Shown: piece by piece, positions 3,787-61,022 of the stretch
Layout: every line of letters starts with the position of its first letter
Numbering within the stretch: the stretch's first letter is position 1
From: the human T2T-CHM13v2.0 reference genome, Homo sapiens
Assembly: GCA_009914755.4 (NCBI GenBank)
Contig: CP086569.2
Span: 10,880,001 to 10,944,000 of the forward strand
Direction: 5' to 3'
Length of the DNA stretch: 64,000 bases
The notes under the pieces: model-generated
What the model was told of the DNA's origin: nothing
Seen by the model: the letters and a program-made list of their open reading frames with translations, nothing else
Databases searched by the model: none
Position numbers and translations under genes: made by a program

Positions 3787-3787
3787 A

Positions 3788-4096
<309 letters not shown>

Positions 4097-9006: not shown

Positions 9007-9022
9007 TTCCAATGCCTTGCCT

Positions 9023-20900: not shown

Positions 20901-20999
20901 TTTCCCCATTCCATTGCATTCCATTCTATTGCATTCCATTGCATTCCATTACACTCTGCTGCATTCCATTCCATTCCACTCCATTCCACTCCACTCTAC

Positions 21000-27600: not shown

Positions 27601-27900
27601 TCCATTCCACTCCACACTACTCCATTCCTCTACACTTCATCACATTCCATCCAATTCCATTCCATTCCATTCCATTCCAGTCAACTGCACTCCATTCCAC
27701 TCCATTCCATCCCATTGCATTCCACTCCATTCCACTCCATTTCACTGCACTCCACTCCACTCCATTCCATTCCACTCCCTACCATTCCATTCCCCTCCAA
27801 TGCACTCCACTCCAGTCAACTCCTCTCCACTCCATTACAATCCATTCCACTCTATTACATTCCATTCCTTTTTTTCAAAAGTATCTCACTCTGTCCCTCA
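24080..27900 (-). repeat. ~3.8-kb block with a distant paralog at 55380-59250 (offset ~31.3 kb)
   Basis: Collinear matches at 24810~56114, 25070~56380, 25156~56456, 27096~58460, 27490~58854, 27884~59221 (offsets 31304-31364). Confidence 0.7.
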
Positions 27901-30900: not shown

Positions 30901-32399
30901 ATTCCGTTCCATTCCGTTCCATTCCATTCCATTCCATTCCATTCCATTCCATTCCCTAAAATTCCATTAAATTCCAGTCCACTCCTCTCCATTCCATCTC
31001 ATTCTGTTCCACTCCATTCCACTCCATTCCACTCCTCTTCTTTCCATTCCAACCCATTCGATTCCATTCCAGTCCACTCCACTCCACTCCTGTCCACTCC
31101 ATTGCATTCCATTCACGCCAATCCACTGCACTCCACTTAATTCCATTCCATGCAACTCCTTTCCATTCCATTCCATTATTCAACAGGATGTCTCTCTGTC
31201 ACCTAGCTGGAGTGCAGTGGCACAATCTCAGCTCACGTTTTATTTAATCATTCCATTTTATACATTGCATTCCATTCCATTCCACTCTGCTGCATTCCAT
31301 TCCATTCGATTCCATTCCACTCCATTCCACTCCTATGTACTCCACTCGACTCCACTCCACTCCACCACAATCCGCTCCATTCCATTCCACTCCATAACAT
31401 TCTATTCCAATTCATTCCCCTGCACTCCACTCCCCTCTACTCCGTTTCAGTCCACTCCACTCCACTCTATTCCACTCCACTCCGTTACATTACACTCCAT
31501 AACATTCTAATCCAATACATTCCCCGACACTGCAGTCCCCTGTACTTCGTTCCAGTCCACTCCACTCCACTCTACTCCAGTCCACTCCATTCCATTTCAC
31601 TCCATTCCATTACATTCCTTTTTTTCGACAGGATCTCTCACTGTCACACAGGCTGGAGTACAGTGGCACAATCTCAGCTCACGTTTCATTTAACCATTCC
31701 ATTGCATTCCATTCCATTCCATTCCATTGCATTCCACTTCAGTCTGCTGTATTCCATTTCATTCGATTCCATTCTACTCCATTCCACTCCAATACACTCC
31801 ACTCAACTCCACTCCACTCCACTCTATTCCATTACACTCCATAATATTCTATTCCAATAAATTCCTTTCCACTCCACTAAACTCAACTCCATTCCAGTCC
31901 ACTCCACTCCACTCCACTCCATTCCACTCCATTCCATTCCACTCAATTCCATTCCGCTGCATTCCATTCCATTCCTTTCTTCCGACAAAATCTCACTCTG
32001 TCACCCAGGTTAAAGGCAGTTGAACAATATCAGCTCACATTTCGTTTCACCATAGCGTTCCATTCCATTCCATTCCTTTAAATTCCATTCCATTTCAGTC
32101 CACTCCACTCCACTCCACTTCACCCCACTCCACTCCACTCCGCTTCATTCCTTCCCTTTCATTTCCACTCCAGTCCACAACACTCCAATCCACTCAACTT
32201 CTTTCCATTCCATCCCATTCCATTCCACTCTAATCCACTGCACTCTACTCCACTCCTTTCCACTCCATTCCATTCCACTCCATCCCATTCCATTCACGCC
32301 AATCCACTCCACTCCACTCCTTTCCACTCCACTACATTGCGTTCCTTTCCACTCTTTTTCATTCCATTCCTGTCTTTTGACAGAATCTCACTTTTTCAC

Positions 32400-33970
32400 C
32401 CAGGCTGGAGTGCAGTGGCACAATCTCAGCTCACATTTCATTTTACCATTCCATGGCATTCCATTCCATTTCATTAATTTCCATTCCACTCCACTCCACT
32501 CCACTCTGCTGCATTCCATTCCGTTCCATTCCATTCCATTCCATTCCATTCCATTCCATTCCATTCCGTTCCATTCCATTGCACTCCACTCTACTCCTCT
32601 CCACTCCATCCCATTGCATCCCATCCCATTCCATGTCATTCCACTCTACTCCACTCCATTCCATTCCATCCCACTCCATTTCATTCTGTGCTTTTCTGTC
32701 AACAAGATCTCACTCTGTCACATTGGCTGGAGTGCAGTCACAGAGTCTCAGGTCACATTTCATTCTACATTCCATTCCATTCCACTCCACTCCACTCCAC
32801 ATCACTCCACTGCACTCCACTCCATTCAATCCCATTGCATTCCGCTCCATTCAACTCCACTTCACCGCACTCCACTCCACTTCGTTCCATTCCACTCCAC
32901 CACCTTCCGTTCTACTCCACTACAATCCACTGCAGTGCACTACTCTCCATTCCATTCCATTCCACTCTATTCCATTCCATTCCTTTTCTTCTACAGGATA
33001 TCTCTCTGTCACTCAGGCTGGAGTGCAGTGGCACAATCTCAGCTCACATTTCCTTCACCATTCCATTCCATTCCATTCTGCTTCATTCCATTACATTACG
33101 TTCCATTTAATTCCAATCTATTGCACTGCACTCCTCTCCACACTACTCCATGCCATTCCATTCTATTACATTCCAGTTCAATCCACTCCATTTCACTACA
33201 TTCCACTCCAATTTTTTCCATTACATCCCGTTTCATTCCAGTTCCATTCGATTCCATTCCATTCCACTCCATTCCATTCCATTCCATTCCATTCCATTCC
33301 ATTCATCTCCATTTCATTCATCTCCATTCCACTCCATTCCATTCCATTCCATTCCATTCCATTCCATTCCATTCCATTCCATTCCATTCATCTCCATTCC
33401 ATTCCATTCCATTCCATTCCATTCCATTCCATTCCATTCCATTCCATTCCGTTCCATTCCATTCATCTCTATTCCATTCCATTCATTCCTTTTAACATCA
33501 TCTCACACTGTCACGGAGGCTGGAGTTCAGTGATAGAATCTCAGCTCACATTACATTTCACCATTCCATTCCATTCCATTCCATTCCTTTGTGTTCCATT
33601 CCACTCAACTGCACTGAATCCCACTCCATTCCACTCGCTTCAGTTCCATTCCATTCCATTCCATTTCATTCCATTCCATTCCATTCCACTCCATTCCAGT
33701 CCATTCCATTCCATTCCACTCCATTCCATTCCATTCCATTGCACTCCATCCCATTCCATTCAACTCTTTTCCACATGACTCCACTCCACTCCACTCCATT
33801 CCACAACACTCCAATCCACTCCATTCCATTCCTTTTCATTTGATCCCATTCCATTCCACTCTGTTCCACTCCACTCCACTCCTTTCCATTCCATTCCATT
33901 CCATTCCACTCCATTCCATTCAATTCTTTCCTTCGACAGGATCTCACTCTGTCACACAGGCTGGAGTGCA
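32400..33970 (-). repeat. Block paralogous to 44700-47000 (offset ~12.3-13.0 kb)
   Basis: 32838~45133, 33589~45891/46563. Shared unusual strings include 'ttcctttgtgttccattccactcaactgcactgaatcccactcc'. Confidence 0.65.
33251..33475 (-). repeat. Long (CATTC)n tract with periodic 'cattcatctc' variant units
   Basis: Runs of 'ccattccattcc' punctuated four times by 'attcatctcc'/'attcatctct'. Confidence 0.9.
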
Positions 33971-36870
33971 GTGGCACAATCTCAGCTGACATTTCATTTC
34001 ACCATTCCATTCCTTTCCACTTTATTCCACTCCACTCCACTCAAGTTCACTTCACTCATTTCCATTCCTTTCCACTGCACTCCACTCCACTCCTCTACCC
34101 TGCATTCCATCCCCTTCCATTCCACTCCATTCCACTCCATTACACTCCACTCCACTCCACTCCATTCCATTCCATTCCATTCCATTCCAATACACTCCAG
34201 TGCATCACACACTTTTCATTCGACAATATCTCACTTTGTCTCCCAGGCTGGAATGCAGTGGCACAATCTCAGCTCACCTTACATTTAACCATTCCATTCC
34301 ATTCCATTACATTTCAGTGCATAACATTGTATTCCATTAGGTAACATTCCGTTCAGTTCTGTTCCACGCCACTCCATTCCACTCCACTCCACTCCAGTCC
34401 ACTCCAATCAACTTCATTCCATTCCATTCCATCCCATTTCACTCCATTCCAAACCACTCCACTCCACACCATTCCTTTCCACTCCATTCCTTTCCTTTCC
34501 ACTCCATTCCATTCTTTTCCACTCCATTCCATTCCATTCCATTCCATTCCATTCCATTCCATTCCATTCCATTCCATTCCATTAAACTCCTTTCTATTCC
34601 ATTGCCTACTTTCGACAGAATCTCACTCTTTGACACAGGCTTGATTTCAGTAGCACAATCTTACCTCACATTTCAGTTCACCATACCATTCCACTGCATT
34701 CCACTCCACTTCACTCCAGTCCACTCCACTCCACATCAGTCCACGCCATTCCACTCCATATCATTCCACTCCATTTCATTCCATTCCTTTGTTTCAACTG
34801 GATCTCACTCTGTCACTCGGGCTGGAATGCCGAGCCCCAATCTCAACTCACTTTTCATTAAACTGTTCCATTCCATTCTATTGCTTTCCATTCTATTCCA
34901 GTTCATTCCATTCCTTTACATTTAATTCCATTCCATTTCATTCTATTAAATTCCATTTCACTCCACTCCACTCCGTTGCATTCCATTCCACTCAACTACA
35001 CTCCACACCACTCCATTCCATTCCATCCCCTTCCACTCCACTCCACTCCATTCCTCCCAATCCCATTCCATTCCACTCTCTTCCAGTCCACTCCACTCCA
35101 CTCCACTCCACTACAATCCATTCCATTCCATTACACTCCATTCCTCTCTCTGCCATTCCACTCTGTTCTTTCGACAGGATCTCACTTTATCACCAAGGCT
35201 GGAGTAACGTGGCATAAACTCAGCTCGCATTTCATTTCAACATTCCATTGCATTCCATTACAATGCATTCCACTCCATTCCACTTCATTCCATTCCATTC
35301 CACTCCACTCCACTCCACTCGGCCTCATTGCATTCCATTCCATTTCACTCCATTCCACGCCAATCTACTCCACTCCCCTCCACTCCATTGTATTCCACTG
35401 CACTCCCTTCCATTCCATTCCTTTCTTTCAACAGGATCTCACTCTGTCACTCAGGATGGAGTGCAGTGGCAAAACCTCAGCTCACATTTCGTTTCACCAT
35501 TCCTTTCCGTTCCATTTAATTCCATTCCATTACCCTCCACTCCACTCCAGTCCACTCCACTCTGCTCCATTCCACTCCAGTCCACTCCACTCCAATCTAG
35601 CACAATCCACTCTATTCCACTCAATCCCTTTCCATTCCATGGAATTCCAATCCACTCCACTCCACTCCTCTCCATTGCATTCCATCATATTCTATTCCAC
35701 TCCATTGCAGTCCACTCCACTCCACTCCTCTCCACTCCACTCCATTCCATTCCATTCCTTTCCTTTCCATTCCATTTTGCTCCATTCTCTTACATTCCAT
35801 TCCATTTATTTCCAATCCATTGCACTGCACTGCTCTCCACTCCACTCCATGTCATTCCAGTCCATTCCACTCCATTCCAAAACACTCCAATCCAATTTGT
35901 TCCATTACATCCCGTTTCATTTCACTCCATTCCACTCCTCTCCCCTCTATTCCATTCCACTCCTCTCCACTCTATTCCACTCGATTCCATTCCATTCTTT
36001 TCCATTCCATTCCATTCCATTCCACTCCAATCTACTCCGCTCCATCCCATTTAATTCCACTCCAATCCACTCCAGTCCACTCCATTCCGTGCCATTCCAT
36101 CCAATTCCGTTCTATTTTGTTCCATTCCATTCAATTCCAGTCCATTACTTTGAATTCTTTTCTTTTGAAATGATTTCACTCATTCACACAGGCTGGAGTG
36201 CAGTGGGAATATCTGAGCTCACACTTCATTTTACCATTCCATTGCACTCCATTCCACTTCACTCCACTCCACCCCACTCCACTCCGTTCCATACCATTCC
36301 ATCCCAATCCATTCCATTCCACTCCACTCCATTCCATTCCACTCCATCCCATTTCATTCCACACCACAACACTCCACTACACCCCACTCACTGCCATTCC
36401 ATGCCATTTCACTCCATTCCATTTGATTCCCTTCCACTCCATTGCATTACATTCCTTTATTTCGACAGTATTTCACTCTGTCACACAGGCAGGAATGCAG
36501 TGGTACAATCTCAGCTCACATTTCATTTCACCATTTCATTTCACTCCATACCACTCCACTCCACTACACCACACTCCACTCCACTCCATGAAATCCCAAT
36601 CCATTCCATTCCACTCCATTCCATTCCATTCCTTTGCTTTCTTTCGACAGGATCTCACTCTGTCACGCAGGGTGGAGTGCAGTGGCACAATTTCAGCTCA
36701 CATTTCATTTCAATATTCCATCTCCTTCCATTCCATTCCACTCTACTCCACTCCACTTCAGTCCACTCCACTCCACTCCCCTCTATTTCATTTTGTTCCA
36801 TTCCATTCCACTCCTTTCCTTTCCTTTCTTTTGACAGGATCTCACTCTATCAAACAGGCTGGAGTGTAGA
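33970..36870 (-). repeat. ~2.9-kb block whose paralog lies ~3.3 kb downstream (37150-40160); also paralogous to 47000-50700
   Basis: 33998~37213 (offset ~3.2 kb), 34602~37881 (3279), 35346~38641 (3295), 36869~40159 (3290). Shared distinctive strings include 'cctactttcgacagaatctc.ctct.tgacacaggcttgatttcagtagcacaatct'. Confidence 0.7.
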
Positions 36871-37374
36871 GGCATAATCTCACCTCAAATTTCACTTCAC
36901 CCTTCCATTCCATTCCGTTCCATTCCATTCCATTCCACTCCATCCCATTCCATTCAACTCCTTTCCACACGACTCCCCTCCACTCCACTCCATTCCACAA
37001 CACTCCACTCCACTGCAATCCACTCGATTCCATTCCATTCCATTTCATTTGAATCCATTCCATTCCACTCTATTCCACTCCACTCCTCTCCACTCCATTC
37101 CATTCCATTCGATTCAATTCCACTCCATTACATTCCATTCTTTCTTTTGAAAGGATCTCACTCTGTCACACAGGCTGGAGTGCAGTGGCACAATCTCAGC
37201 TTACCTTTCATTTCACCATTCTATTCCACTTTATTCAACTCCACTCCACTCAAGTCCACTTCACTCATTTCCATTCCATTCCACTGCACTCCAATCCACT
37301 CCTCTACCCTGCATTCCATCCCCTTCCATTCCACTCCTTTCCACTCCATTCCACTCCACTCCACACCATTCCAC

Positions 37375-37500
37375 TCCATTCCATTCCATTCCATTCCACT
37401 CCATTCCATTCCATTCCATTCCATTCCATTCCATTCCATTCCATTCCATTCCATTCCATTCCATTCCATTGCACCCCATTCCATTCCATTCCATTCCATT
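37375..37500 (-). repeat. Near-perfect (CATTC)n tract (~25 units)
   Basis: 'ccattccattccattcc...' with only 'cactc' and 'gcacc' variants. Confidence 0.95.
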
Positions 37501-39999
37501 GCACTCCATTACATCACATACTTTTCTTTCGACAATATCTCACTTTGTCCCCCGGGCAGGAATGCAGTAGCACTATCTCAGCTCACCTTTCACTTAACCA
37601 TTCCATTCCATTACATTACATTTCAGTACATAACATTCTATTCCATTACGTAACATTCCGTTCAGTTCCATTCTACTGAACTCCATTCCACTCCACTCCA
37701 CTCCAGTCCACTCCAATCCACTTCATTCCATTCCATTCCATTCCACTCCATTCCACTCCACTCCACTCCACTCCACTCCATTCTATTCCACTCTATTCTA
37801 TTCCAATCCATTTTTTTCCATTCCACTCCATTCCATTCCACTCCATTCCATTACATTCCATTAAACTCCTTTCTATTCCATTGCCTACTTTCGACAGAAT
37901 CTCGCTCTGTGACACAGGCTTGATTTCAGTAGCACAATCTCATCTCACATTTCATTTCACCATACCATTCCACTGCATTCCACTCCACTCCACTCCACAG
38001 CAGTCCACGCCATTCCACTCCATATCATTCCACTCCATTTCATTCCATTCATTTGTTTCAACAGTACCTCACTCTGTTACCTGGGCTGGAGTGCAGAGGC
38101 CCAACCTCAACTCACATTTCATTAAACTGTCCCATTCCATTCCATTCCATTCCATTCCATTCCATTCCATTCCATTCCATTCCATTCCATTCCATTGCAT
38201 TCCATTCCATTCCATTAAATTCCATTCCATTTCATGCTATTATATTCCATTCTACTCCACTCCACTCCATTCCATTCCACTCAACTCTACTCCACTCCAC
38301 TCCAGTCCACTTCATTCCATTCCATCCCATTCCACTCCCCTCCACTCCATTCCTCCCAAATCCCCTTCCAATCCATTCCAATCCACTCCGCTCCACTCCA
38401 CTCCACTCCACTCCATTCCATTCCATTCCATTACACTCCATTCCTCTCCTTGCCATTCCACTCCGTTCTTTTCACAGGATCTCACTTTGTCACCAAGGCT
38501 GGAGTAACATGGCATAATCTCAGCTCACATTTCATTTCAACATTCTATTGTAGTCCATTACAATGCATTCCATTCCATTCTATTTCATTCCATTCCATTC
38601 CACTCCACTCCACTCTGCTGCATTCCATTCCATTCCATTTCACTCCGTTCCTCGCCAATCTACCCCACTCCTCTCCACTCCATTGTATTCCATTCCACTC
38701 CCTTCCATTGCATTCCTATCTTTCAACAGGATCTCACTCTGTCATCCAGGATGGAGTGCAGTGGCAAAATCTCAGCTCACATTTCCTTTCACCAATCCTT
38801 TCCATTCCATTAAATTCCATTCCTTTCCCCTCCATTCCACTCCAGTCCACTCCACTCCGCTCCATTCCACTCCAGTCCACTCCACTCCAATCTAGCACAA
38901 TCCACTCTATTCCACTCAATCCCTTTCCATTCCACGGAATTACAATCCAGTCCACTCCACTCCACTCCTCTCCATTGCATTCCATCATATTCTATTCCAT
39001 TCCATTGCAGTCCACTCCACTCCACTCCTCTCCACTCCATTCCATTACATTCCATTCCTCTCCATTCCATTCCACTCCAATCCACACCACTCCACACGAC
39101 TCCCTTCCACTCCATTCCATTCCACTCCACTACATTCCATTCGATTCCACTCCATTCCATTCCATTCCACTCCATTCCATTCCATTCCATTCCATTCCAT
39201 TCCATTCCATTCCACTCCTTTGCATTCCATTCCTTTCTTTTGACAGGATCTCACTCTGTCACCCTGGCTCATGTGCTCCATTCCCCTCCATTCCATTCCA
39301 TTCCATTCCATTCCATTCCATTCCATTCCATTCCATTCCTTTGCATTCCATTCCTTTCTTTTGACAGAATCTCACTCTGTCACCCTGGCTCATGTGCAGT
39401 GGCATAATCTCAGCTCACATTACATTTCACCATTGGATTCAATTCCATTTCCTTCCATTCCGTTCCATTCCGCTCCAATCCACTCCACTCCAGTTCATTC
39501 CATTCCACTCCATCCCATTTCATTCCAATCCAATCCCCTCCAGTCCACTCCATTCCATGCCATTCCTTCCAATTCCATTCTACTGTGTCCCATTCCAATC
39601 CATTCTAGTCCATTCCATTCAATTCTTTTCTTTTGAAATGATCTCACTCATTCACACAGGCTGGAGTGCAGTGGGAATATCTGAGCTCACACTTCATTCC
39701 ATTCCATTCCATTTGATTCCATTTACCTCCATTGCATTCCATTCCTTTATTTCCACAGTATCTCACTCTGTCACACAGGCAGGAGTGCAGTGGCACAATC
39801 TCAGCACACATTTCGTTTCACCGTTGCATTTCACTCCATTCCACTCTATTCCACCACACCAGACTCCACTCCACTCCACTCCACTCCATTCCATTAAATC
39901 CCAATCCATTCCATTCCACTCCACTCCATTCCATTCCTTTGTTTTCTTTCGACAGGATCTCACTCTGTCACGCAGGGTGGAGTGCAGTGGCACAATCTC

Positions 40000-42900
40000 A
40001 GCTGACATTTCATTTCAATATTCCATCCCATTCCATACCATTCCACTCTACTCCACTCCACTCCACTCTATTCCATTCCGTTCCATTCCACTCCACTCCT
40101 TTCCATTCCTTTCCTTTCTTTTGACAGGATCTCACTCTATCAAACAGGCTGGAGTGTAGTGGCACAATCTCACCTCAAATTTCACTTCACCCTTCCGTTC
40201 CGTTCCGTTCCATTCCATTCCATTCCATTCCATTCCATTCCATTCCATTCCATTCCATTATACTCCATTCCACTCATCTCCACTCCATTGCTTTCCATTC
40301 CACTCCACTTCACTCCACTCCTTTCCACTCCACTACATTACATCCCATTCTGTCCCACTCCATTCCACTCCACTCCACTCCAATCTACTCAATTCCATTT
40401 CATTACGTCACATTCCATTCCGTTCCATTCCACTCCACTCCAATCCACTCAACTGAACTTTCTATTCCATTCCATTCCATTCTATTCCACTCCACTCAAT
40501 CCAATTCACTCCATTCCATTCCATCCCGTTTCATTCCACTCCACTCCACACCACTCCACTCCACTCCATTCCATGCCATTCCATCCAATTCCATTCTATT
40601 CCGTTCAATTCCAATCCATTCCTGTCCATTCCATTCATTTCGTTTCTTTTTAAATGATCTCCCTCAGTCACACGGGCTGGAGTTCGGTGGGAAAATCTGA
40701 GCTTCATTTCATTTCACCATTCCATTGCACTCCATTCTACTCCATTCCACTCCACCCCACTCCACTCCATTCCATTCCATTCCATCCCAATCCATTACAT
40801 TCCACTCCATTTCATTCCTTTCTTTTCTTTCATAAGGATATCAGTCTTTCACGCAGGGTGAAGTGGAGTGGCACAATCTCAGTTCACATTTTATTTCAAC
40901 TTTCCACTCTGTAGCATTCCATTGCAGTCCGTTTCTTTCCATTCCTTTATTTTACAGTATCTCACTCTGTCACTCCGGGTGGAGTGCAGTCGCATAATCT
41001 CAGCTCACATTACATTTCAGCATTGCATTCCATTCCATTCCACTCTATTCCATTCCATTCGTTTCCATTCAATTCCGCTCTACTCCACTCCACTGCATTT
41101 CATTTCATACCATTCCATTCCACTCCACTTCACTCTAATCCACTCAATTCCATTCCATCCCATGACATTCCTCTCCACTAAACTCCACTCCATTCCATTC
41201 CCCTCCATCCCGTTTCATTCCACACAACTACACTCCACTACACTCCATTTCCTGCCATTCCACCTCATTTCATTCCACTCCAATCCATTCCATTTGATTC
41301 CATTCCACTCCATTGCATTACATTCCTTTTTTTTTCCGACAGTATCTCACTCGGTCACACAGGCTGTTGTGCAGTGGCACAATCTCAGCTCACAATTCAT
41401 TTCACCATTTCATTTCACTCCATACCACTCTACTACACTGCACCACAATCCACTCCACTCCACTCCACTCCTTCCACTCCATTTAATCCAAATCCATTCC
41501 ATTCCACTCCATTCCATTCCATTCCTTTGCTTTCTTTCAATAGGATCTCACTCTGTCACACAGGGTGGAGTGTAGTGGCATAATCTCAGCTCACATTTCA
41601 TTTCAATATTCCATCCCATTCCATTCCATTCCACTCCACTCCCCTCCACTCCAGTCCACTCCACTCCATTGCACTGTATTCCATCCCAGTCCATTCCACT
41701 CCATTCTACACCACTCCACTCCACTCCATTGCATTACATTCCAATCAATTCCATTCCATCCCACTCCATCCCATTCCATTCCATTCCATTCCATTCCATT
41801 CCATTCCACTCCACTCCACTCCACTCCAATCCATTCCATCTCATTGCATTCCACTCCACTCCATTCCATGCCATTCCATCGAATTCCATTCTATTCCGTT
41901 CCATTCCAGTCCATTCCTGTCCATTCCATTCAATTCGTTTCTTTTGAAATGATCTCAGTCACACTGGCTGGAGTGCAGTGGGAAAATCTGAGCTCACATT
42001 TCATTTCACCATTCCACTGTACTCCATTCCACTCCACTCTACTCCATCCCACTCCACTCCATTCCACTCCATTCCATCCCAATCCATTCCATTCCACTCC
42101 ATTCCATTCCTTTCCTTTCGTCAGAATATCACTCTTTCACGCAGGGTGTAGTGCAGTGGCACAATCTCAGTTCACATTTCATTTCAACTTTCTACTCCAT
42201 AGCATTCCATTGCAGTCCCTTTCTTTCCATTCCTTTCTTTTGACAGGATCTCACTCTGTCACTCAGGGTGGAGTGCAGTCGTATAATCTCAGCTCACATT
42301 ACATTTCATCATGGCATTCCATTCCATTCCACTCGTTTTGTCTCCATTTCACTCTACTCCACTCCACTCCACTGCACTCCTTTTCATACCATTCCATTCC
42401 ACTCCACTTCACTCTAATCCACTCAATTCCATTCTATCCCATTCCATTCCGCTCTACTCCACTCCACTCCACTACACTCCATTCCATTCCACTCTATCCC
42501 GTTTCATTCCACACTATTACGCTCCACTACACTCCATTTCCTGCCATTCCACCCCATTTCATTCCTTTCCATTCCTGTCCATTTGATTCCATTCCACTCC
42601 ACTGCATTCCATTCCTTTTTTTCAACAGTATCTCACTCGGTTACACAGGCTGGTGTGCAGTGGCAGAATCTCAGCTCACAAAACATTTCACCATTTCATT
42701 TCCCTCCATACCACTCCACTACACTACACCACACCCCACTCCACTCCACTCCACTCCATTAAATCCAAATCCATTCCATTCCACTCCATTCCACTCCATT
42801 CCTTTGCTTTCTTTCAATAGGATCTAACTCTGTCACGCAGGGTGGAGTGCAGTGGTACAATCTCAGCTCACATTTCATTTCAATATTCCTTCCCATTCCA

Positions 42901-45400
42901 TTCCATTCCATTCCACTCCACTCCACTCCTCTCCACTGCACTCCATTGCATTTTATTCCATCCCAGTCCATTCCACTCTATTCTACACCACTCCACTCCA
43001 TTGCGTTACATTCCAACTGATTCCATTCCATCCCACTCCATCGAATTCCATTCCACTCCATTCCATTCCATTCCATTCCGTTCCATTCCAGTCCACTCCA
43101 CTCCACTCCAAATCACTCCAATCCATTCCATCCCATTTCATTCCACTCCACTCCATTCCATTCAATTCAATCCAATTCCATTTTATTCCATTCCATTCAA
43201 TTTGTTTCTTTTGAAAGGATCTCAGTCAGTCACACTGGCTGGAGTGCAGTGGGAAAATTTGAGCTTACATTTCATTTCACAATTCCATTACACTCCATTC
43301 CACTCCACTCCAACCCACTCCACTCCATTCCACTCCATTCCATCCGAATCCATTCCATTCCACTGCATTCCTTTCCTTTCCTTTCTTTCATCAGGATAGC
43401 ACTCTTTCACGCAGGGTGGAGTGCAGTGGCACAATCTCAGTTCACATTTCATTTCAACTTTCCACTCCACAGCATTCCATTGCAGTCCGTTTCTTTCCAT
43501 TCCTTTCTTTTGACAGGATCTCACTCTGTCACTCTGGGTGGAGTGCAGTCGCATAATCTCAGCTTACATTACATTTCAGGATTGCGTTCCATTGCATTCC
43601 ACTCCATTCCATTCCATTCCATTCCATTCCATTCCATTCCATTCCATTCCATTCCTTTCCACTCTACTCCACTCCACTGCCCTCCATTTCATACCATTCC
43701 ATTCTACTCCACTCCACTCTAATCCACTCAATTCCAATCCATTCCATTCCATTCCACTCCACTCCACTCTATTCCATTCCACTCCATCCCATTTCATTCC
43801 AACCACTCCACTTCACTACACTCCATTCTGGGACATTCCATCCCATTTCATTCCATTCCATTTGATTCCATTCCACTCCATTGCATTCCATTCCTTTTTT
43901 TCGACAGTATCTCACCCTGTCACACAGGCTGGGGTGCAGTGGCACAATCTCAGCTCACATTTCATTTCCCTCAGTACTATTCCATTCCACTTCACCACAC
44001 TCCACTCCACTCCACTCCATTAAATCCCAGTCCATTCCATTCCACTCCATTCCATTCCATTCCTTTGCTTTCTTTCGATAGGATCTCACTCTGTCACACA
44101 GGGTGGAGTGCAGTGGCACAATCTCAGCTCACATTTCATTTCAATATTCCTTCCCATTCCATTCCATTCCACTCCACTCCACTCCTCTCCACTCCACTCC
44201 ACTCCATTGCATTTTATTCCATCCCAGTCCATTCCACTCCATTCTACACCACTCCACTCCACTCCATTGCATCACATTCCAACTGATTCCATTCCATGCC
44301 ACTCCATCGAATTCCATTCCACTCTATTCCATTCCATTCCATTCCATTCCATTCCATTCCTTTCCATTCCATTCCATTCCATTCCTTTCCATTCCATTCC
44401 ATTCCATTCCGCTCCATTCCAGTCCACTCCACCCCACTCCAATTCACTCCAATCCATTCCATCCCATTTCATTCCACTCCACTCTATTCCATTCAATTCA
44501 ATCCAGTTCCATTTTATTCCATTCCATTCAATTTTTTTCTTTTGAAAGGATCTCACTGAGTCACACTGGCTGGAGTGCAGTGGGAAAATTTGAGCTTACA
44601 TTTCATTTCACAATTCCATTACACTCCATTCCACTCCACTCCAACCCACTCCACTCCATTCCACTCCATTCCATCCGAATCTATTCCATTCCACTGCATT
44701 CCATTCCTTTCCTTTCTTTCATCAGGATAGCACTCTTTCACGCTGGGTGGAGTGCAGTGGCACAATCTCAGTTCACATTTCATTTCAACTTTCCACTCCA
44801 CAACATTCCATTGCAGTCCGTTTCTTTCCATTCCTTTCTTTTGACAGGATCTCACTCTGTCACTCTGGGTGGAGTGCAGTCGCATAATCTCAGCTTACAT
44901 TACATTTCTGGACTGCGTTCCACTCCACTCCATTCCATTCCATTCCATTCAATTCCATTCCATTCCATTCCATTCCATTCCTTTCCACTCTACTCCACTT
45001 CAATGCCCTCCATTTCATACCATTCCATTCTACTCCACTCCACTCTAATCCACTCAATTCCAATCAATTCCATTCCATTCCACTCCACTCCACTCTACAT
45101 CACTCCACTCCACTCAACTCCGTTCAATCCCATTGCATTCCGCTCCATTGAACTCCACTTCACCGCACTCCACTCCACTTCGTTCCATTCCACTCCACCA
45201 CCTTCCGTTCTACTCCACTACAATCCACTGCAGTGCACTACTCTCCACTCCATTCTATTCCGCTCTATTCCATTCCATTCCTTTTCTTCTACAGGCTATA
45301 TCTTTGTCACTCAGGCTGGAGTGCAGTGGCACAATCTCAGCTCACATTTCCTTCACCATTCTATTCCATTCCACTGAATTCCATTCCATACCATTCTGCT
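40000..45400 (-). repeat. Tandem block of ~1.27-1.6-kb higher-order units, each made of about five Alu-segment-punctuated subunits (~200-330 bp)
   Basis: Anchor 'gggtggagtg.agtggca.aatctcagct.acatttcatttcaatattcc' recurs at ~40010, 41598, 42876, 44138 (spacings 1588, 1278, 1262). The in-phase sub-anchors 'ggagtgcagtcgcataatctcagct.acattacatttca' (40990/42280/43545/44880), 'agtgcagtggcacaatctcagttcacatttcatttcaactttc.actcca.agcattccattgcagtcc' (40880/42160/43430/44770) and 'ctggctggagtgcagtgggaaaat.tgagct' (40690/41975/43250/44580) recur with the same period. Confidence 0.7.
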
Positions 45401-46591
45401 TCATTCCATTACATTACGTTCCATTTAATTCCAATCTATTGCACTGCACTCCTCTCCACACTACTCCATGCCATTCCATTCTATTACATTGCATTTCAAT
45501 CCACTCCATTGAACTACATTCCACTCCAATTTTTTCCATTACATCCCGTTTCATTTCACTCCATTCCACTCCTCTCCACTCTACTGCATTCCACTCTTCT
45601 CCACTCTATTCCATTGGATTCCATTCCATTCGATTCCATTCCATTCCACTCCTTTCCTTTCCTTTCCATTCCATTCATCTCCATTCCATACCATTCCATT
45701 CCATTCCATTCCATTCCATTCCATTCCATTCATCTCTATTCCATTCCATTCATTCCTTTTAACATCATCTCACACTGTCACGCAGGCTGGAGTTCAGTGA
45801 TAGAAGCTCAGCTCACTTTACATTTCACCATTCCATTCCATTCCATTCCATTCCATTCCATTCCATTCCATTCCATTCCATTCCATTCCTTTGTGTTCCA
45901 TTCCACTCAACTGCACTAAATCCCACTCCACTCCACTCCCTTCAGTTCCATTCCATTCCATTTCATTCCATTCTATTCCATTCTGCTTCATTCCATTACA
46001 CTACGTTCCATTTAATTCCAATCTGTTTCAGTGCACTCCTCTCCACACTACTCCATGCCATTCCATTCTATTACATTCCAGTTCAATCCACTCCATTGCA
46101 CTACATTCCACTCCAATTTTTTCCATTACATCCCGTTTCATTTCACTCCATTCCACTCCTCTCCACTCTATTCCATTCGATTCCATTCCATTCGATTCCA
46201 TTCCATTCCACTCCTTTCCTTTCCATTCCATTCCATTCCATTCCATTCCATTCCATTCCATTCCATTCCATTCCATTCCATTCTATTCCATTCCATTCCA
46301 TTCCATTCCATTCATCTCCATTCCATTCCATTCCATTCCATTCCATTCCATTCCATTCCATTCATCTCCATTCCATTCCATTCCATTCCATTCCATTCCA
46401 TTCATCTCTATTCCATTCCATTCATTCCTTTTAACATCATCTCACACTGTCACGCAGGCTGGAGTTCAGTGATAGAATCTCAGCTCACATTACATTTAAC
46501 CATTCCATTCCATTCCATTCCATTCCATTCCATTCCATTCCATTCCATTCCATTCCATTCCTTTGTGTTCCATTCCACACAACTGCACTGA
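45247..46591 (-). repeat. Two tandem copies of a ~672-bp unit (single-copy paralog at ~32950-33600)
   Basis: '...ttaacatcatctcacactgtcacgcaggctggagttcagtgatagaa.ctcagctcac.ttacatttcaccattcc' and the following ~600 bp recur at offset 672. ORF tails '...FIPFNIISHCHAGWSSVIE.QLTLH.TIPFHS...FVFHSTQLH' end at 45919 and 46591. Confidence 0.75.
46222..46410 (-). repeat. Long (CATTC)n tract with 'cattcatctcc' variant units (paralog of 33251-33475)
   Basis: Same variant pattern as 33251-33475: 'ttccattcc' runs interrupted by 'attcatctcc'. Confidence 0.9.
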
Positions 46592-46999
46592 ATCCCACTC
46601 CACTCCACTCCCTTCAGTTCCATTCCATTCCATTCCATTCCATTCCATTGCATTCCATTCCATTCCATTCCATTCCATTCCATTCCATTCCATTCCATTC
46701 CATTTCATTCCATTCCACTCCATTCCAGTCCATTCCATTACATTCCACTCCATTCCATTCCTTTCCATTCCACTCCATCCCATTCCATTCAAATCTTTTC
46801 CACACGACTCCACTCCACTGCACTCCATTCCACAACACTCCACTCCTCTCCAATCAACTCTATTCCATTCCTTTTCATTTGATCCCATTCCATTCCACTC
46901 TGTTCCACTCCACTCCACTCCTTTCCTTTCCATTCCATTCCATTTCACTCCATTCCATTCAATTCTTTCCTTCGACAGGATCTCACTCTGTCACACAGG

Positions 47000-49900
47000 C
47001 TGGAGTGCAGTGGCACAATCTCAGCTTACATTACATTTCACCATTCCATTCCTTTCCACTTTATTCCACTCCACTCCACTCAAGTTCACTTCACTCATTT
47101 CCATTCCTTTCCACTGCACTCCACTCCACTCCTCTACCCTGCATTCCATCCCCTTCCATTCCACTCCATTCCCCTCCAATCCACTCCACTCCATTCCATT
47201 CCATTCCATTCCATTCCAATACACTCCAGTACATCACACACTTTTCATTCGACAATATCTCACTTTTTCCCCCAGGCTGGAATGCAGTGGCACAATCACA
47301 GCTCACCTTACATTTAACCATTCCATTCCATTCCATTACATTTCAGTGCATAACATTGTATTCCATTAGGTAACATTCCGTTCAGTTCTCTTCCACGCCA
47401 CTCCATTCCACTCCACTCCACTCCAGTCCACTCCAATCAACTTCATTCCATTCCATTCCCTCCCATTTCACTCCATTCCAAACCACTCCACTCCACACCA
47501 TTCCATTCCACTCCATTCCTTTCCTTTCCACTCCATTCCATTCCATTCCATTCCATTCCATTCCATTCCATTCCATTCCATTCCATTCCATTGCACTCCA
47601 TTACATCACATACTTTTCTTTCGACAATATCTCACTTTGTCCCCCTGGCTGGAATTCAGTAGCACAATCTCAGCTCACCTTTCATTTAACCATTCCATTC
47701 CATTACATTACATTTCAGTACATAACATTCTATTCCATTACGTAACATTCCGTTCAGTTCCATTCTACTGAACTCCATTCCACTCCACTCCACTCCAGTC
47801 CACTCCAATCCACTTCATTCCATTCCATTCCATCCCATTCCATTCCACTCCATTCCACTCCACTCCACTCCACTCCACTCCATTCTATTCCACTCTATTC
47901 TATTCCAATCCATTTTTTTCCATTCCACTCCATTCCATTCCACTCCATTCCACTCCATTCCATTAAACTCCTCTCTATTCCATTGCCTACTTTCGACAGA
48001 ATCTCGCTCTGTGACACAGGCTTGATTTCAGTAGCACAATCTCATCTCACATTTCATTTCACCATACCATTCCACTGCATTCCACTCCACTCCACTCCAC
48101 TCCACACCAATCCGCGCCATTCCACTCCATATCATTCCACTCCATTTCATTCCATTCATTTGTTTCAACAGTACCTCACTCTGTTACCTGGGCTGGAGTG
48201 CAGAGGCCCAACCTCAACTCACATTTCATTAAACTGTCCCATTCCATTCCATTCCATTCCATTCCATTCCATTCCATTCCATTCCATTCCATTCCATTCT
48301 ATTAAATTCCATTCCATTTCATGCTATTATATTCCATTCCACTCCACTCCACTCCATTACATTCCATTCCACTCAACTCTACTCCACTCCACTCCAGTCC
48401 ACTTCATTCCATTCCATCCCATTCCACTCCCCTCCACTCCATTCCTCCCAAATCCCCTTCCATTCCATTCCATTCCATTCCATTCCAATCCACTCCGCTC
48501 CACTCCACTCCACTCCACTCCATTCCATTACACTCCATTCCTCTCCTTGCCATTCCACTCCGTTCTTTTCACAGGATCTCACTTTGTCACCAAGGCTGGA
48601 GTAACATGGCATAATCTCAGCTCACATTTCATTTCAACATTCTATTGTAGTCCATTACAATGCATTCCATTCCATTCTATTTCATTCCATTCCATTCCAC
48701 TCCACTCCACTCTGCTGCATTCCATTCCATTCCATTTCACTCCGTTCCTCGCCAATCTACCCCACTCCTCTCCACTCCATTGTATTCCATTCCACTCCCT
48801 TCCATTGCATTCCTATCTTTCAACAGGATCTCACTCTGTCATCCAGGATGGAGTGCAGTGGCAAAATCTCAGCTCACATTTCCTTTCACCAATCCTTTCC
48901 ATTCCATTAAATTCCATTCCTTTCTCCTCCATTCCACTCCAGTCCACTCCACTCCGCTCCATTCCACTCCAGTCCACTCCACTCCAATCTAGCCCAATCC
49001 ACTCTATTCCACTCAATCCCTTTCCATTCCACGGAATTACAATCCAGTCCACTCCACTCCACTCCTCTCCATTGCATTCCATCATATTCCATTCCACTCC
49101 ATTGCAGTCCACTCCACTCCACTCCTCTCCACTCCATTCCATTCCATTCCATTCCTCTCCATTCCATTCCACTCCGATCCACACCACTCCACACGACTCC
49201 CCTCCACTCCATTCCACTCACCTCCACTCCATTCCATTCCACTCCACTACATTCCATTCGATTCCACTCCATTCCATTCCATTCCCCTCCATTCCATTCC
49301 ATTCCATTCCATTCCATTCCATTCCATTCCATTCCATTCCATTCCATTCCATTCCATTCCATTCCTTTGCATTCCATTCCATTCCACTCGTTTGCATTCC
49401 ATTCCTTTCTTTTGACAGGATCTCACTCTGTCACCCTGGCTCATGTACTCCATTCCACTCCATTCCATTCCATTCCATTCCCTTCCTCTCCATTCCATTC
49501 CACTCCAATCCACACCACTCCACACGACTCCCCTCCACTCCATTCCACTCAACTCCACTCCATTCCATTCCATTCCACTCCATTCCATTCCATTCCACTC
49601 CATTCCACTCCATTCCATTCCATTCCACTCCATTCCATTCCATTCCACTCTATTCCATTCCATTACATTCCATTCCACTCCTTTGCATTCCATTCCTTTC
49701 TTTTGACAGGATCTCACTCTGTCACCCTGGCTCACGTGCAGTGGCGTAATCTCAGTTCACGTTACATTTCACCATTGCATTCAATTCCATTTCCTTCCAT
49801 TTCCGTTCCATTCCACTCCAATCCACTCCACTCCAGTTCATTCAATTCCGCTCCATCCCATTTCATTCCACTCCAATCCACTCCAGTCCACTCCATTCCA

Positions 49901-52900
49901 TGCCTTTCCTTCCAATTCCATTCTACTTTATTCCTTTCCAATCCATTCTAGTCCATTCCATTCAATACTTTTCTTTTGAAATGATCTCACTCATTCACAC
50001 AGGCTGGAGTGCAGTGGGAATATCTGAGCTCACACTTCATTCCACCATTCCATTGCACTCCATTCCACTCCACTCCACTCCACCCCACTCCACTCCATTA
50101 AATCCCAATCCATTCCATTCCCCTCCACTCCATTCCATTCCACTCCATCCCATTTCATTCCACACCACTACACTCCACTACACTACACTCTCTGCCATTC
50201 CATCCCATTTGTCTCCATTCCATTCCATTCCATTTGATTCCATTCCACTCCATTGCATTCCATTCCTTTATTTCGACAGTATCTCACTCTGTCACACAGG
50301 CAGGAGTGCAGTGGCACAATCTCAGCTCACATTTCGTTTCACCGTTTCATTTCACTCCATTCCACTCCATTCCACCACACCACACTCCACTCCACTCCAC
50401 TCCACTCCATTCCACTCCACTCCACTCCATTAAATCCCAATCCATTCCATTCCACTCCATTCCATTCCATTCCTTTGTTTTCTTTCGACAGGATCTCACT
50501 CTGTCACGCAGGGTGGAGTGCAGTGGCACAATCTCAGCTGACATTTCATTTCAATATTCCATCTCATTCCATGCCATTCCACTCTACTCCACTCCACTCC
50601 ACTCTAGTCCATTCCGTTCCATTCCACTCCACTCCTTTCCATTCCTTTCCTTTCTTTTGACAGGATCTCACTCTATCAAACAGGCTGGAGTGTAGTGGCA
50701 CAATCTCACCTCAAATTTCACTTCAAACTTCCATTCCTTTCCGTTCCATTCCATTCAATTCCATTCCATTCCATTATACTCCATTCCACTCATCTCCACT
50801 CCATTGCTTTCCATTCCACTCAACTTCACTCCACTCCTTTCCACTCCACTACATTACATCCCATTCTGTCCCACTCCATTCCACTCCACTCCACACCAAT
50901 CTACTCAATTCCATTTCATTACATCACATTCCATTCCATTCCATTCCACTCCACTCCAATCCACTCAACTGAACTTTCTATTCCATTCCATTCCATTCTA
51001 TTCCACTCCACTCAATCCAATTCACTCCATTGCATTCCATCCCATTTCATTCCACTCCACTCCACACCACTCCACTCCACTCCATTCCATGCCATTCCTT
51101 CCAATTCCATTCTATTCCGTTCCATTCCAATCCATTCCTGTGCATTCCATTCAATTCGTTTCTTTTGAAATGATCTCAGTCACACTGGCTGGAGTGCAGT
51201 GGGAAAATCTGAGCTCACGTTTCATTCAACTCCACTCCACTCCACCCCACTCCACTCCATTCCACTCCATTCCATCCCAATCCATTGCATTCCACTCCAT
51301 TCCATTCCTTTCCTTTCGTCAGAATATCACTCTTTCACGCAGGGTGTAGTGCAGTGGCACAATCTCAGTTCACATTTCATTTCAACTTTCTACTCCATAG
51401 CATTCCATTGCAGTCCCTTTTTTTCCACTCCTTTCTTTTGACAGGATCTCACTCTGTCACTCAGGGTGGAGTGCAGTCGTATAATCTCAGCTCACATTAC
51501 ATTTCATCATGGCATTCCATTCCATTCCACTCGTTTTGTCTCCATTTCACTCTACTCCACTCCACTCCACTGCACTCCTTTTCATACCATTCCATTCCAC
51601 TCCACTTCACTCTAATCCACTCAATTCCATTCTATCCCATTCCATTCCGCTCTACTCCACTCCACTCCACTACACTCCATTCCATTCCACTCTATCCCGT
51701 TTCATTCCACACTATTACGGTCCACTACACTCCATTTCCTGCCATTCCACCCCATTTCATTCCTTTCCATTCCTGTCCATTTGATTCCATTCCACTCCAC
51801 TGCATTCCATTCCTTTTTTTCAACAGTATCTCACTCGGTTACACAGGCTGTTGTGCAGTGGCACAATCTCAGCTCATAATTCATTTCACCATTTCATTTC
51901 CCTCCATACCACTCCACTACACTACACCACACCCCACTCCACTCCACTCCACTCCACTCCATTAAAACCAAATCCATTCCATTCCACTCCATTCCACTCC
52001 ATTCTTTGCTTTCTTTCAATAGGATCTAACTCTGTCATGCAGGGTGGAGTGTAGTGGTACAATCTCAGCTCACATTTCATTTCAATATTCCTTCCCATTC
52101 CATTCCATTCCATTCCACTCCACTCCACTCCACTACTCTCCACTCCACTCCACTCCATTGCATTTTATTCCATCCCAGTCCATTCCACTCCATTCTACAC
52201 CACTCCACTCCACTCCATTGCGTTACATTCCAACTGATTCCATTCCATCCCACTCCATCGAATTCCATTCCACTCCATTCCATTCCATTCCATTCCATTC
52301 CAGTCCACTCCACTCCACTCCAATTCACTCCAATCCATTCCATCCCATTTCATTCCACTCCACACCAATCCATTCAATTCAGTCCAATTCTATTTTATTC
52401 CATTCCATTCAATTTGTTTCTTTTGAAAGGATCTCACTCAGTCACACTGGCTGGAGTGCAGTGGGAAAATTTGAGCTTGCATTTCATTTCACAATTCCAT
52501 TACACTCCATTCCACTCCACTCCAACCCACTCCACTCCATTCCACTCCATTCCATCTGAATCCATTCCATTCCACTGCATTCCATTCCTTTCCTTTCTTT
52601 CATCAGGATAGCACTCTTTCACGCAGGGTGGAGTGCAGTGGCACAATCTCAGTTCACATTTCGTTTCAACTTTCCACTCCACAGCATTCCATTGCAGTCC
52701 GTTTCTTTCCATTCCTTTCTTTTGACAGGATCTCACTCTGTCACTCTGTGTGGAGTGCAGTCGCGTAATCTCAGCTTACATTAGATTTCAGGATTGCTTT
52801 CCATTGCATTCCACTCCACTCCATTCCATTCCATTCGATTCCATTCCTTTCCACTCTACTCCACTCCACTGCCCTCCATTTCATACCATTCCATTCTACT

Positions 52901-60890: not shown

Positions 60891-61022
60891 CCATTCCATT
60901 CCACTCCATTCCATTCCATTCCATTCCATTCCATTCCATTCCATTCCATTCCATTCCATTCCATTCCATTCCATTCCACTCCACTCCATTCCATTCCATT
61001 CCACTCCATTCCATTCCATTCC
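60891..61022 (-). repeat. Near-perfect (CATTC)n tract (~26 units)
   Basis: 'ccattccattcc...' with three 'ccactcc' variants. Confidence 0.95.

What the first reader, a model, noticed from the sequence alone, without database searches (positions are those of the whole stretch)
40000..45400. Five-subunit ~1.27-kb higher-order repeat in the pentameric satellite
Within this block the Alu-spacer-delimited subunits are not interchangeable. Five distinct subunit types, each with its own spacer variant (for example 'cagtcgcataatctcagct.acattacatttca', 'cagttcacatttcatttcaactttc', 'cagtgggaaaatctgagct'), recur in fixed order with 1262-1290-bp period for about four copies. This is an alpha-satellite-like HOR architecture on a pentameric satellite.
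Basis: seen in the sequence. Interest (0 to 1): 0.5.

Follow-up and report, generated by a model that had tools for sequence, protein, structure and literature searches.

The report
Local 1.3-kb repeat in pentameric satellite
A short stretch of a human-type (CATTC)n pericentromeric satellite really is built from a 1.3-kb unit of five Alu-fragment-delimited subunits repeated about 3.7 times, but this is an ordinary local "nested tandem repeat" of the kind already described for human satellite 3, not a new architecture.

Summary
Five spacer-defined subunit types (A-B-C-D-E) recur in fixed order from about 40285/40659 to 45097. The units are 1291, 1271 and 1331 bp, followed by a partial fourth (A, B and part of C). 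Whole units are 88.7-89.6% identical at aligned columns, or 80-86% counting gaps. Random spacer-anchored 1.29-kb blocks of the same satellite are 73 +/- 3% identical (maximum 79.5%). 62% of rare 16-mer intervals in the block fall at 1250-1349 bp.

The "alpha-like HOR" reading is only partly right:
- Subunits range from 121 to 467 bp.
- Unit identity is below 90%.
- There are fewer than four copies.
- The block is one tier of a nested patchwork: 5 bp, then ~350-bp Alu-delimited subunits, then 1.3 kb, then a ~3.3-kb and a ~11-12-kb super-unit.

The same unit recurs at 51171-55736, where V1 is 98% identical to U2. Four-subunit (A'DEF) and six- or seven-subunit (ABCDEF, ABCDEFF) variants also exist.

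[quoted passage not shown] The most likely origin is repeated unequal exchange. No function specific to the unit is indicated. Interest is low.

The parts
8326..64000 (+). Composite pentameric (CATTC/CACTC)n satellite carrying at least 157 same-strand Alu-3'-end fragments. Median spacing is 336 bp (range 119-988). The C-rich strand is the + strand.
   Evidence: TRF period 5 over 9022-63998. GC skew is -0.64 to -0.80. Spacer scan: 157 on +, 0 on -. Spacing statistics. Alu alignment.
39643..40658 (+). Four-subunit variant unit A'-D-E-F immediately upstream of the 1.3-kb units. It lacks B and C and carries the extra F spacer. Its pentamer tail from ~40285 is already in register with the tail of subunit E.
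   Evidence: Spacer types. 40285-43160 aligns to 41616-44426. D, E and F here are 96.2/97.7/93.8% identical to those at 50283/50495/50667.
40659..41949 (+). Unit U1 (A-B-C-D-E; 181+121+385+201+403 = 1291 bp). It is the most diverged unit and has no close partner.
41950..43220 (+). Unit U2 (A-B-C-D-E; 178+122+382+192+397 = 1271 bp). It is 98.1% identical to V1 at 51171-52432.
43221..44551 (+). Unit U3 (A-B-C-D-E; 177+122+391+174+467 = 1331 bp). Its closest relative is V2. The extra length is mostly a pure CATTC tract in subunit E.
44552..45097 (+). Partial unit U4 (A, B and the first part of C). It is a young copy of the start of U3.
   Evidence: 43020-43771 vs 44351-45097 is 95.7% identical. 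A3/A4 are 97.7% and B3/B4 98.4% identical.
45067..45097 (+). Right boundary of the 1.3-kb block. Here similarity to U3 ends and similarity to 32769-33434 begins, marking the start of the next ~11-12-kb super-unit.
   Evidence: Overlapping HSP ends.
36175..37156 (+). Older A'-D-E-F variant unit, part of the ~3.3-kb internal duplication.
   Evidence: 36413-36955 vs 39703-40245 is 87.1% identical.
49986..51170 (+). A'-D-E-F variant unit of the second super-unit, the counterpart of 39643-40658.
51171..55736 (+). Second block of the same repeat: V1 (ABCDE, 1262 bp), V2 (ABCDEFF, 1746 bp) and V3 (A'BCDEF, 1558 bp).
   Evidence: 41850-44244 vs 51071-53412 is 93.4% identical.
1..8325 (.). Flanking alpha satellite (171/342-bp periods, 75-79% matches, no CENP-B box). 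This is context only and not part of the repeat.

Best explanation
The flagged block is a local nested tandem repeat (NTR) inside an Alu-fragment-bearing HSat3-type pentameric satellite next to alpha satellite. The basic building block of the whole 55-kb array is one ~52-bp antisense Alu 3'-end fragment with its poly(A) remnant, followed by a (CATTC/CACTC)n tract of variable length. After these subunits had diverged, a run of five or six neighbouring subunits (A-B-C-D-E, with or without F) was duplicated in tandem by unequal exchange between misaligned sister chromatids or homologues, or by replication-associated duplication. That produced a 1.3-kb period. A segment of at least 10 kb that already contained two such units was then duplicated, giving U2-U3 and V1-V2. 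Finally, part of U3 was duplicated again to give U4p. Whole-pentamer slippage changed tract lengths throughout. SHOWN: the fixed subunit order; the identities; the nesting; the variant units; the relative ages of the copies; and the fact that length differences are multiples of 5 bp. INFERRED: the mechanism (unequal exchange and slippage); that ABCDEF is the ancestral form; and that the source is human or great-ape DNA. The 1.3-kb unit has no indicated function of its own. Like other HSat3 it is presumably constitutive heterochromatin. If HSF1-driven stress transcription occurs here, the GGAAU-type RNA would be the complement of the C-rich + strand. That last point comes from the literature and was not tested.
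For: Periodicity and fixed order. Excess over background: units ~89% vs 73 +/- 2.8% (maximum 79.5%). Subunit types are distinct from each other at 70-80% identity. Different ages: U3/U4p 95.7-98.5%, U2/V1 98.1%, U3/V2 94-99% per subunit, U1 <=93% to anything. The type strings show U2-U3 and V1-V2 share the same variant pair (g..F then J..h), so the tandem structure predates the large duplication. Nesting in larger repeats: 37325-39233~47422-49330 at 94.3%, 32769-35774~45067-49171 at 87-95%, and ~3.3-kb offsets at 33.7-40.2 kb. Pentamer-quantised length change: spacer spacing is 2 mod 5 in 97 of 156 cases, and unit lengths of 1291/1271/1331 bp differ by 20 and 60 bp. A truncated spacer at 39240-39277 inside a 121-bp tandem duplication shows an exchange breakpoint within a spacer. 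Other parts of the array have other local periods (~0.64, ~2.05, ~3.3 kb), and unrelated contigs of the same family have their own (623, 3110, 3699 bp). The literature describes kilobase NTRs in HSat2/3 that vary hyper-locally, TE fragments inside HSat3 units, and HSat3 intermingled with Alu fragments on chrY and the acrocentrics.
Against: The mechanism is inferred from the pattern alone. No breakpoints can be pinned down in pentamer tracts, and gene conversion between the two blocks could mimic part of the inferred order of events. For example, the 98% U2/V1 identity contrasts with 88-94% in the flanks. I could not align the window to a reference assembly, so species, chromosome, HSat3 subfamily and assembly correctness are all unverified. 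[quoted passage not shown] That statement concerns a genome-wide tree, so the two observations may not conflict.
Confidence: 0.85

Rival explanations
1. It is a genuine alpha-satellite-type HOR. The Alu-delimited subunits act as monomers, and the five-subunit unit is being actively homogenised across a large array of which the window shows only an edge.
For: Fixed order of diverged subunit types. The same unit is present in two blocks 10 kb apart, with one pair 98% identical. HOR-like structural variants exist (A'DEF, ABCDEF).
Against: Subunit lengths vary 3.9-fold, from 121 to 467 bp. Unit identity is ~89% and heterogeneous in age. There are only ~3.7 and 3 copies in 55 kb, and the rest of the array has other periodicities or none. 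None of 120 related contigs carries A-, B- or C-type subunits; best matches are 80-88%. An exact search for the C-type spacer found nothing in two collections.
Confidence: 0.08
2. It is an assembly artefact: falsely duplicated or mis-joined satellite sequence.
For: Satellite arrays are prone to mis-assembly, and I could not inspect reads.
Against: Copies differ by 2-11%, with many substitutions and pentamer-quantised indels spread along the units. False duplications are normally near-identical. The structure is internally consistent at several scales.
Confidence: 0.04
3. It is chance resemblance in low-complexity pentameric sequence.
For: Any two stretches of this satellite align at ~73%, and ungapped repeat finding is swamped by 10-bp-shifted self-matches.
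Against: Unit identity is 5-6 standard deviations above the background and exceeds the maximum of 56 control pairs. Type-specific spacer variants recur in strict order. The k-mer interval peak holds 62% of intervals.
Confidence: 0.01
4. The 1.3-kb unit is a selected functional module, for example a phased protein-binding or transcription unit that uses the Alu fragments.
For: HSat3 is transcribed under stress and bound by HSF1. Every spacer starts with a pyrimidine tract followed by CAG on the + strand, which resembles the cryptic 3' splice site of antisense Alu (my own knowledge).
Against: The Alu piece is the 3' end and so, to my knowledge, lacks the internal Pol III boxes. The splice-site-like motif lies on the C-rich strand, which is not the reported transcribed sense. 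The motif is common to all 157 spacers, not specific to this unit. Copy identities look like neutral decay. No data tie any function to the periodicity.
Confidence: 0.03

Closest known systems
Nested tandem repeats (NTRs) of human satellites 2/3 (Altemose et al.; e.g. DYZ1 ~3.6 kb HSat3A6, chr1 HSat2 1.77 kb)
   Same: A kilobase-scale unit built from diverged (CATTC)n-derived sequence. Internal parts are of unequal size. Periodicity changes over short distances within an array ('hyper-local' expansion). TE fragments are included in the units.
   Different: This instance is tiny, with ~3.7 and 3 copies versus hundreds to thousands. It is only ~89% homogeneous; DYZ1 units are mostly >98% identical. 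I found no named description of this particular 1.3-kb unit.
Alpha-satellite higher-order repeats
   Same: Ordered set of mutually diverged subunits repeated as a block, with structural variants that lack or gain subunits.
   Different: Alpha monomers are ~171 bp and uniform, whereas these subunits are 121-467 bp. Alpha HOR copies are >90-95% identical (quotes >90%) and run for hundreds of kilobases to megabases. There is no link to the kinetochore here.
HSat3 arrays intermingled with Alu fragments on chrY and acrocentric short arms (Rhie et al.)
   Same: Pentameric HSat3 with interspersed Alu-derived fragments, possibly next to alpha satellite. On chrY, DYZ3 alpha is followed by a 372-488-kb HSat3 array.
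   Different: Chromosomal origin could not be tested. That paper reports no local homogenisation of HSat3-associated Alu fragments, whereas here spacer variants recur in local tandem order.
HSat1B / DYZ2 (2.5-kb composite unit with an Alu-derived subunit) and beta-satellite/LSau composites
   Same: Satellite units that incorporate a TE fragment as a fixed part of the repeat.
   Different: The sequence families are unrelated. HSat1B has one Alu piece per 2.5-kb unit and very high homogeneity, whereas here there is one ~52-bp Alu tail per ~350-bp subunit.

Membership tests
Canonical (alpha-satellite-type) higher-order repeat | Unit composed of a discrete number of monomers of similar length | tested here: not met
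   Subunit lengths are 121-122 (B), 177-181 (A), 174-201 (D), 382-391 (C) and 397-467 bp (E).
Canonical (alpha-satellite-type) higher-order repeat | Monomer types within a unit are mutually diverged and occur in a fixed order in every copy | tested here: met
   Between-type identity is 70.5-79.8%. The order A-B-C-D-E is kept in U1-U3, U4p and V1.
Canonical (alpha-satellite-type) higher-order repeat | Unit copies highly homogeneous (>90-95%) | tested here: not met
   U1/U2 89.6%, U1/U3 88.7%, U2/U3 88.8% at aligned columns, and 80-86% with gaps. Mean column identity is 88%. Only the U3/U4p partial pair reaches 95.7%.
Canonical (alpha-satellite-type) higher-order repeat | Long array of many tandem units | tested here: not met
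   There are ~3.7 units at 40285-45097 and 3 variant units at 51171-55736. Other parts of the 55-kb array show other periodicities.
Nested tandem repeat (NTR) of HSat2/3 (Altemose et al.) | Kilobase-scale tandem unit within (CATTC)n-derived satellite, not made of equal monomers | tested here: met
   The definition is quoted.
Nested tandem repeat (NTR) of HSat2/3 (Altemose et al.) | Periodicity varies locally along the array | tested here: met
   Local peaks at ~625 bp (19-28 kb), ~2050 bp (12-19 kb), ~3275 bp (34-41 kb), 1275-1325 bp (37-48 kb) and 1275/1725 bp (50-57 kb). Compare the Fig. S10 legend.
Human satellite 3 (HSat3) | Dominated by ATTCC/CATTC pentamers on one strand | tested here: met
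   2967 CATTC and 2000 CACTC on the + strand vs 13 and 86 on the - strand. Exact copies of these pentamers cover 45% of bases. TRF period 5 over 55 kb.
Human satellite 3 (HSat3) | Classical diagnostic 10-mer CAACCCGA(A/G)T interspersed among pentamers | tested here: not met
   0 matches on either strand, and 0 even for AACCCGA. So this is a variant or subfamily lacking the classical motif, not textbook satellite 3.
Human satellite 3 (HSat3) | Assignment to one of the Altemose 2014 subfamilies (A1-A6, B1-B5) by subfamily-specific 24-mers or read sets | not testable with these tools
   The marker sets and a human reference are not available here.
Human satellite 2 (HSat2) | Enrichment of CATTCGATTC-type variant repeats | tested here: not met
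   Only 18 CATTCGATTC in 55.7 kb.
HSat3-Alu composite arrays of chrY / acrocentrics (Rhie et al.) | HSat3 blocks intermingled with Alu (AluY-like) fragments | tested here: met
   157 same-strand fragments. Their consensus matches the reverse complement of the Alu 3' end plus tail at 52 of 64 positions.
HSat3-Alu composite arrays of chrY / acrocentrics (Rhie et al.) | Location on chrY or an acrocentric short arm / pericentromere | not testable with these tools
   No human reference is searchable here. The only hints are adjacency to CENP-B-box-free alpha satellite and the existence of ~84%-identical alpha/pentamer junctions in other contigs.

The most novel reading that the evidence does not exclude
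In this Alu-bearing HSat3 subfamily the Alu fragment may act as a true monomer delimiter. The family would then evolve genuine HORs with structural variants (A'DEF, ABCDE, ABCDEF) by the same dynamics as alpha satellite. That would give a second, independent human system for studying HOR birth. The A, B and C spacer variants would also serve as unique markers for locus-specific mapping of stress-induced HSat3 transcription.
Probability: 0.07. Interest if true: 0.4.

Novelty: new member of a known kind. Interest (0 to 1): 0.15.

Why it matters
It matters little beyond annotation. It is a clean, small example of how kilobase periodicities arise hyper-locally in HSat3 through nested rounds of unequal exchange, with copies of several ages caught side by side. 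The type-specific spacer variants (A, B, C) are locally unique markers inside otherwise unmappable pentameric satellite. They could help read mapping, assembly validation and copy-number genotyping of this pericentromeric segment. It also adds a nuance to the published statement that HSat3-associated Alu fragments show no local homogenisation.

Tried and rejected
- A global ungapped lag scan of 40000-45400 showed only a weak peak at 1331 (0.436), because pentamer-quantised indels shift the register. I replaced it with gapped self-alignment.
- A fuzzy regex with the best-match flag skipped most spacers, so I replaced it with a Hamming scan.
- The built-in ungapped repeat finder returned families of 10-bp-shifted pentamer self-matches and could not resolve the 1.3-kb unit.
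- Exact scans for the C-type spacer found nothing in genome contigs or metagenome contigs.
- The generic junction was absent from genome contigs. In metagenome contigs it gave 120 host-derived contigs, none carrying the unit; best matches were 80-88%.
- The literature search for older satellite III/alphoid boundary papers returned nothing relevant. The published Science version of Altemose et al. is not held, and Altemose 2014 does not mention Alu.
- I considered and rejected HSat2 (motif scarce), classical satellite 3 sensu stricto (10-mer absent), chance similarity (controls), and a role for the Alu fragment as a Pol III promoter (it is the 3' tail, not the A/B-box region; my own knowledge).
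Full report
CONTEXT. The window begins with alpha satellite at 1-8325 (171- and 342-bp periods, 75-79% matches). This flank has no CENP-B box. At ~8325 it switches abruptly to a pentameric satellite that fills the remaining 55.7 kb. TRF reports period 5 over 9022-63998. GC is 0.43-0.47 with a strong negative GC skew. The + strand carries 2967 CATTC and 2000 CACTC, against 13 and 86 on the - strand.

Embedded in the satellite are at least 157 copies of a ~50-bp non-pentameric spacer. All are on the + strand, with none on the - strand. Median spacing is 336 bp, ranging from 119 to 988. Truncated copies also exist, for example at 39240-39277.

The spacer consensus is TTTCTTTCGACAGGATCTCACTCTGTCACACAGGCTGGAGTGCAGTGGCACAATCTCAGCTCAC. 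It matches the reverse complement of the last ~52 bp of an Alu plus its poly(A) remnant at 52 of 64 positions, and every Alu CpG reads CA. Spacer-to-spacer distance is 2 mod 5 in 97 of 156 cases. The array is therefore one ancestral [Alu tail + (CATTC)n] module whose tracts have changed by whole pentamers.

By composition this is an HSat3-type satellite, but it lacks the classical CAACCCGA(A/G)T 10-mer entirely and is not HSat2. The source is presumably human or a close relative. I could not test this, because no primate reference is searchable with these tools.

THE OBSERVATION. Gapped self-alignment of 38-47 kb against the window gives a clear diagonal: 40285-43160 vs 41616-44426, offset 1331, 84.6% over 2910 columns. 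Harmonics appear at offsets 2553 and 3869. Unrelated parts of the satellite align at only 72-76%. Stricter scoring splits the diagonal into pieces of 87.6%, 85.6% and 95.7% identity.

The spacers in the block fall into five types that cycle A-B-C-D-E. A-type spacers start at 40659, 41950, 43221 and 44552. Unsupervised clustering of all 157 spacers with their junctions recovers the same cycle without prior labels.

Units U1, U2 and U3 are 1291, 1271 and 1331 bp. U4 is partial, with A, B and part of C, and ends at ~45097. Unit lengths differ by 20 and 60 bp, which are whole pentamers.

Pairwise unit identity is 88.7-89.6% at aligned columns and 80-86% with gaps. A four-way MAFFT alignment has 88% mean column identity and is collinear throughout. 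Same-type subunits are 76-98% identical, whereas different types within one unit are 70-80%.

As a control, 56 random pairs of spacer-anchored 1290-bp blocks from outside 35-56.5 kb gave 73.0 +/- 2.8% identity, with a maximum of 79.5%. An alignment-free NTRprism-style spectrum places 743 of 1192 (62%) rare-16-mer intervals at 1250-1349 bp, the sharpest local periodicity in the array.

The corrections are: periods of 1261-1331 bp, about 3.7 copies, an end at ~45.1 kb rather than 45.4 kb, and identity just under the predicted 90%.

WHAT SURROUNDS IT. The block is one tier of a nested structure. The spacer-type string around it reads as follows:

d M C H N . O G [I F B A] . H N e O G f [I F B A] [J D E F B][g D E F B][J D E h B][J D E] | d M M C H H N e O G f [I F B A] [g D E F B][J D E h B A A][I D E . 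B A] Q W X ...

In my labels, J, g and I are A; D is B; E is C; F and h are D; B is E; and A is F.

Three points follow:
- The same 1.3-kb unit recurs at 51171-55736 as V1 (ABCDE, 1262 bp), V2 (ABCDEFF, 1746 bp) and V3 (A'BCDEF, 1558 bp).
- A four-subunit variant, A'DEF, precedes both blocks and also occurs at 36175.
- The whole ~11-12-kb word (about 32.8-45.07 kb) is repeated at about 45.07-55.9 kb. Examples are 37325-39233 vs 47422-49330 at 94.3%, 41850-44244 vs 51071-53412 at 93.4%, and 32769-35774 vs 45067-49171 at 87-95%. The first copy also has an internal ~3.3-kb duplication.

Other parts of the array have different local periods of ~0.64, ~2.05 and ~3.3 kb, and there are long-range duplicates such as 24646-27942 vs 55941-59276.

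HISTORY (inferred). Nearest-neighbour analysis per subunit and per unit gives these relationships:
- U2 pairs with V1: 98.1% overall, with subunit C 100% and B 98.5% over 130 bp.
- U3 pairs with V2: A 98.5%, B 99.2%, C 94.6%, D 95.4%, E 93.8%.
- The two A'DEF units pair with each other (D 96.2%, E 97.7%, F 93.8%).
- U4p is a young copy of the start of U3, at 95.7-98.5%.
- U1 and V3 have no close partner.

U2-U3 and V1-V2 share the same pair of variant types. The 1.3-kb tandem arrangement therefore already existed when the segment of at least 10 kb was duplicated, and local duplication continued afterwards. E-F adjacency occurs in five of nine E copies, including the most diverged ones. ABCDEF is therefore probably ancestral, and the flagged five-subunit form is a derivative that lost F.

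This is the signature expected from repeated unequal exchange plus pentamer slippage. Gene conversion between the two blocks may contribute to the 98% U2/V1 identity.

RELATED SEQUENCES. The C-type spacer has no exact match in the bacterial/archaeal genome collection or in the metagenome contigs. The generic Alu-to-pentamer junction is present in at least 120 metagenome contigs, presumably host DNA. None carries the A-, B- or C-type subunits. Best matches to the block are 80-88%, which indicates paralogous members of the same family.

Several of these contigs have kilobase periodicities of their own: 623 bp at 91%, 3110 bp at 85% and 3699 bp at 86%. Five contigs span an alpha-to-pentamer junction equivalent to the one at ~8325, at ~84% identity.

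COMPARISON WITH WHAT IS KNOWN. Altemose et al. state that HSat2/3 are in some cases composed of multi-kilobase units. They call these nested tandem repeats, to distinguish them from HORs made of similar-length monomers. [quoted passage not shown]

Rhie et al. describe HSat3 arrays intermingled with Alu fragments on chrY and the acrocentric chromosomes. Hallast et al. place a 372-488-kb HSat3 array directly next to the DYZ3 alpha satellite on Yq. Classic examples of such units are the 1.77-kb chr1 HSat2 and the 3.6-kb DYZ1.

The flagged block fits this class. It fails three defining features of a canonical alpha-type HOR: equal monomers, >90-95% unit identity and a long array. It shares two others: a fixed order of diverged subunit types and the existence of structural variants.

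FUNCTION. Nothing indicates a function specific to the 1.3-kb unit. As HSat3-type DNA it is presumably constitutive heterochromatin. HSat3 is known to be transcribed under heat stress by HSF1 and RNA polymerase II, unidirectionally, into GGAAU-repeat RNA that scaffolds nuclear stress bodies. Here that RNA would be complementary to the + strand. Whether this locus takes part was not tested.

VERDICT. This is an ordinary, small, moderately diverged local NTR in an Alu-bearing HSat3-type array. It is nicely nested, but it belongs to a kind already described. Interest is low.

Noticed in passing
window 1-8325 and junction ~8325: Alpha satellite with 171/342-bp periodicity at only 75-79% matches and no CENP-B box. 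It abuts the pentameric satellite directly, with no intervening sequence. Metagenome contigs L017, L025, L036, L043 and L044 span an equivalent junction at ~84% identity, so paralogous or orthologous alpha/pentamer junctions exist elsewhere.
   Followed up: partly
window 23496-24700: A run of four F-type spacers forms its own local repeat. 23554-24061 vs 24193-24700 is 95.7% identical (offset 639). TRF also reports a 152-bp tandem at 92% (23846-24224).
   Followed up: partly
window 24646-27942 vs 55941-59276; 21439-23107 vs 27690-29316: Long-range intra-array duplications: 88-93% identity at a 31.3-kb offset (spacer types W X Y Z a b c in the same order) and 93-94% at a 6.2-kb offset. The array is a patchwork of segmental duplications at several scales.
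   Followed up: partly
window 39156-39397: A 121-bp tandem duplication (95%, TRF) whose first copy carries a spacer truncated after ...CTCATGTGC (39240-39277). This places a duplication breakpoint inside the Alu fragment. It also means the count of 157 spacers is a lower bound.
   Followed up: partly
whole satellite 8326-64000: Spacer-to-spacer distance is 2 mod 5 in 97 of 156 intervals, so subunit length changes mostly by whole pentamers. The classical satellite-3 10-mer CAACCCGA(A/G)T is completely absent.
   Followed up: yes
all spacers, e.g. window 40119-40180: Every Alu CpG in the spacer consensus reads CA on the + strand, a one-directional decay fixed before amplification. Each spacer begins with a pyrimidine tract followed by CAG, which resembles the cryptic 3' splice site of antisense Alu, but it lies on the C-rich strand.
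   Followed up: no
loci L022, L037, L111: Unrelated contigs of the same Alu-pentamer family show kilobase-scale self-similarity of their own: 3110 bp at 85%, 623 bp at 91% and 3699 bp at 86%. Local periodicities appear to be general in this family.
   Followed up: partly
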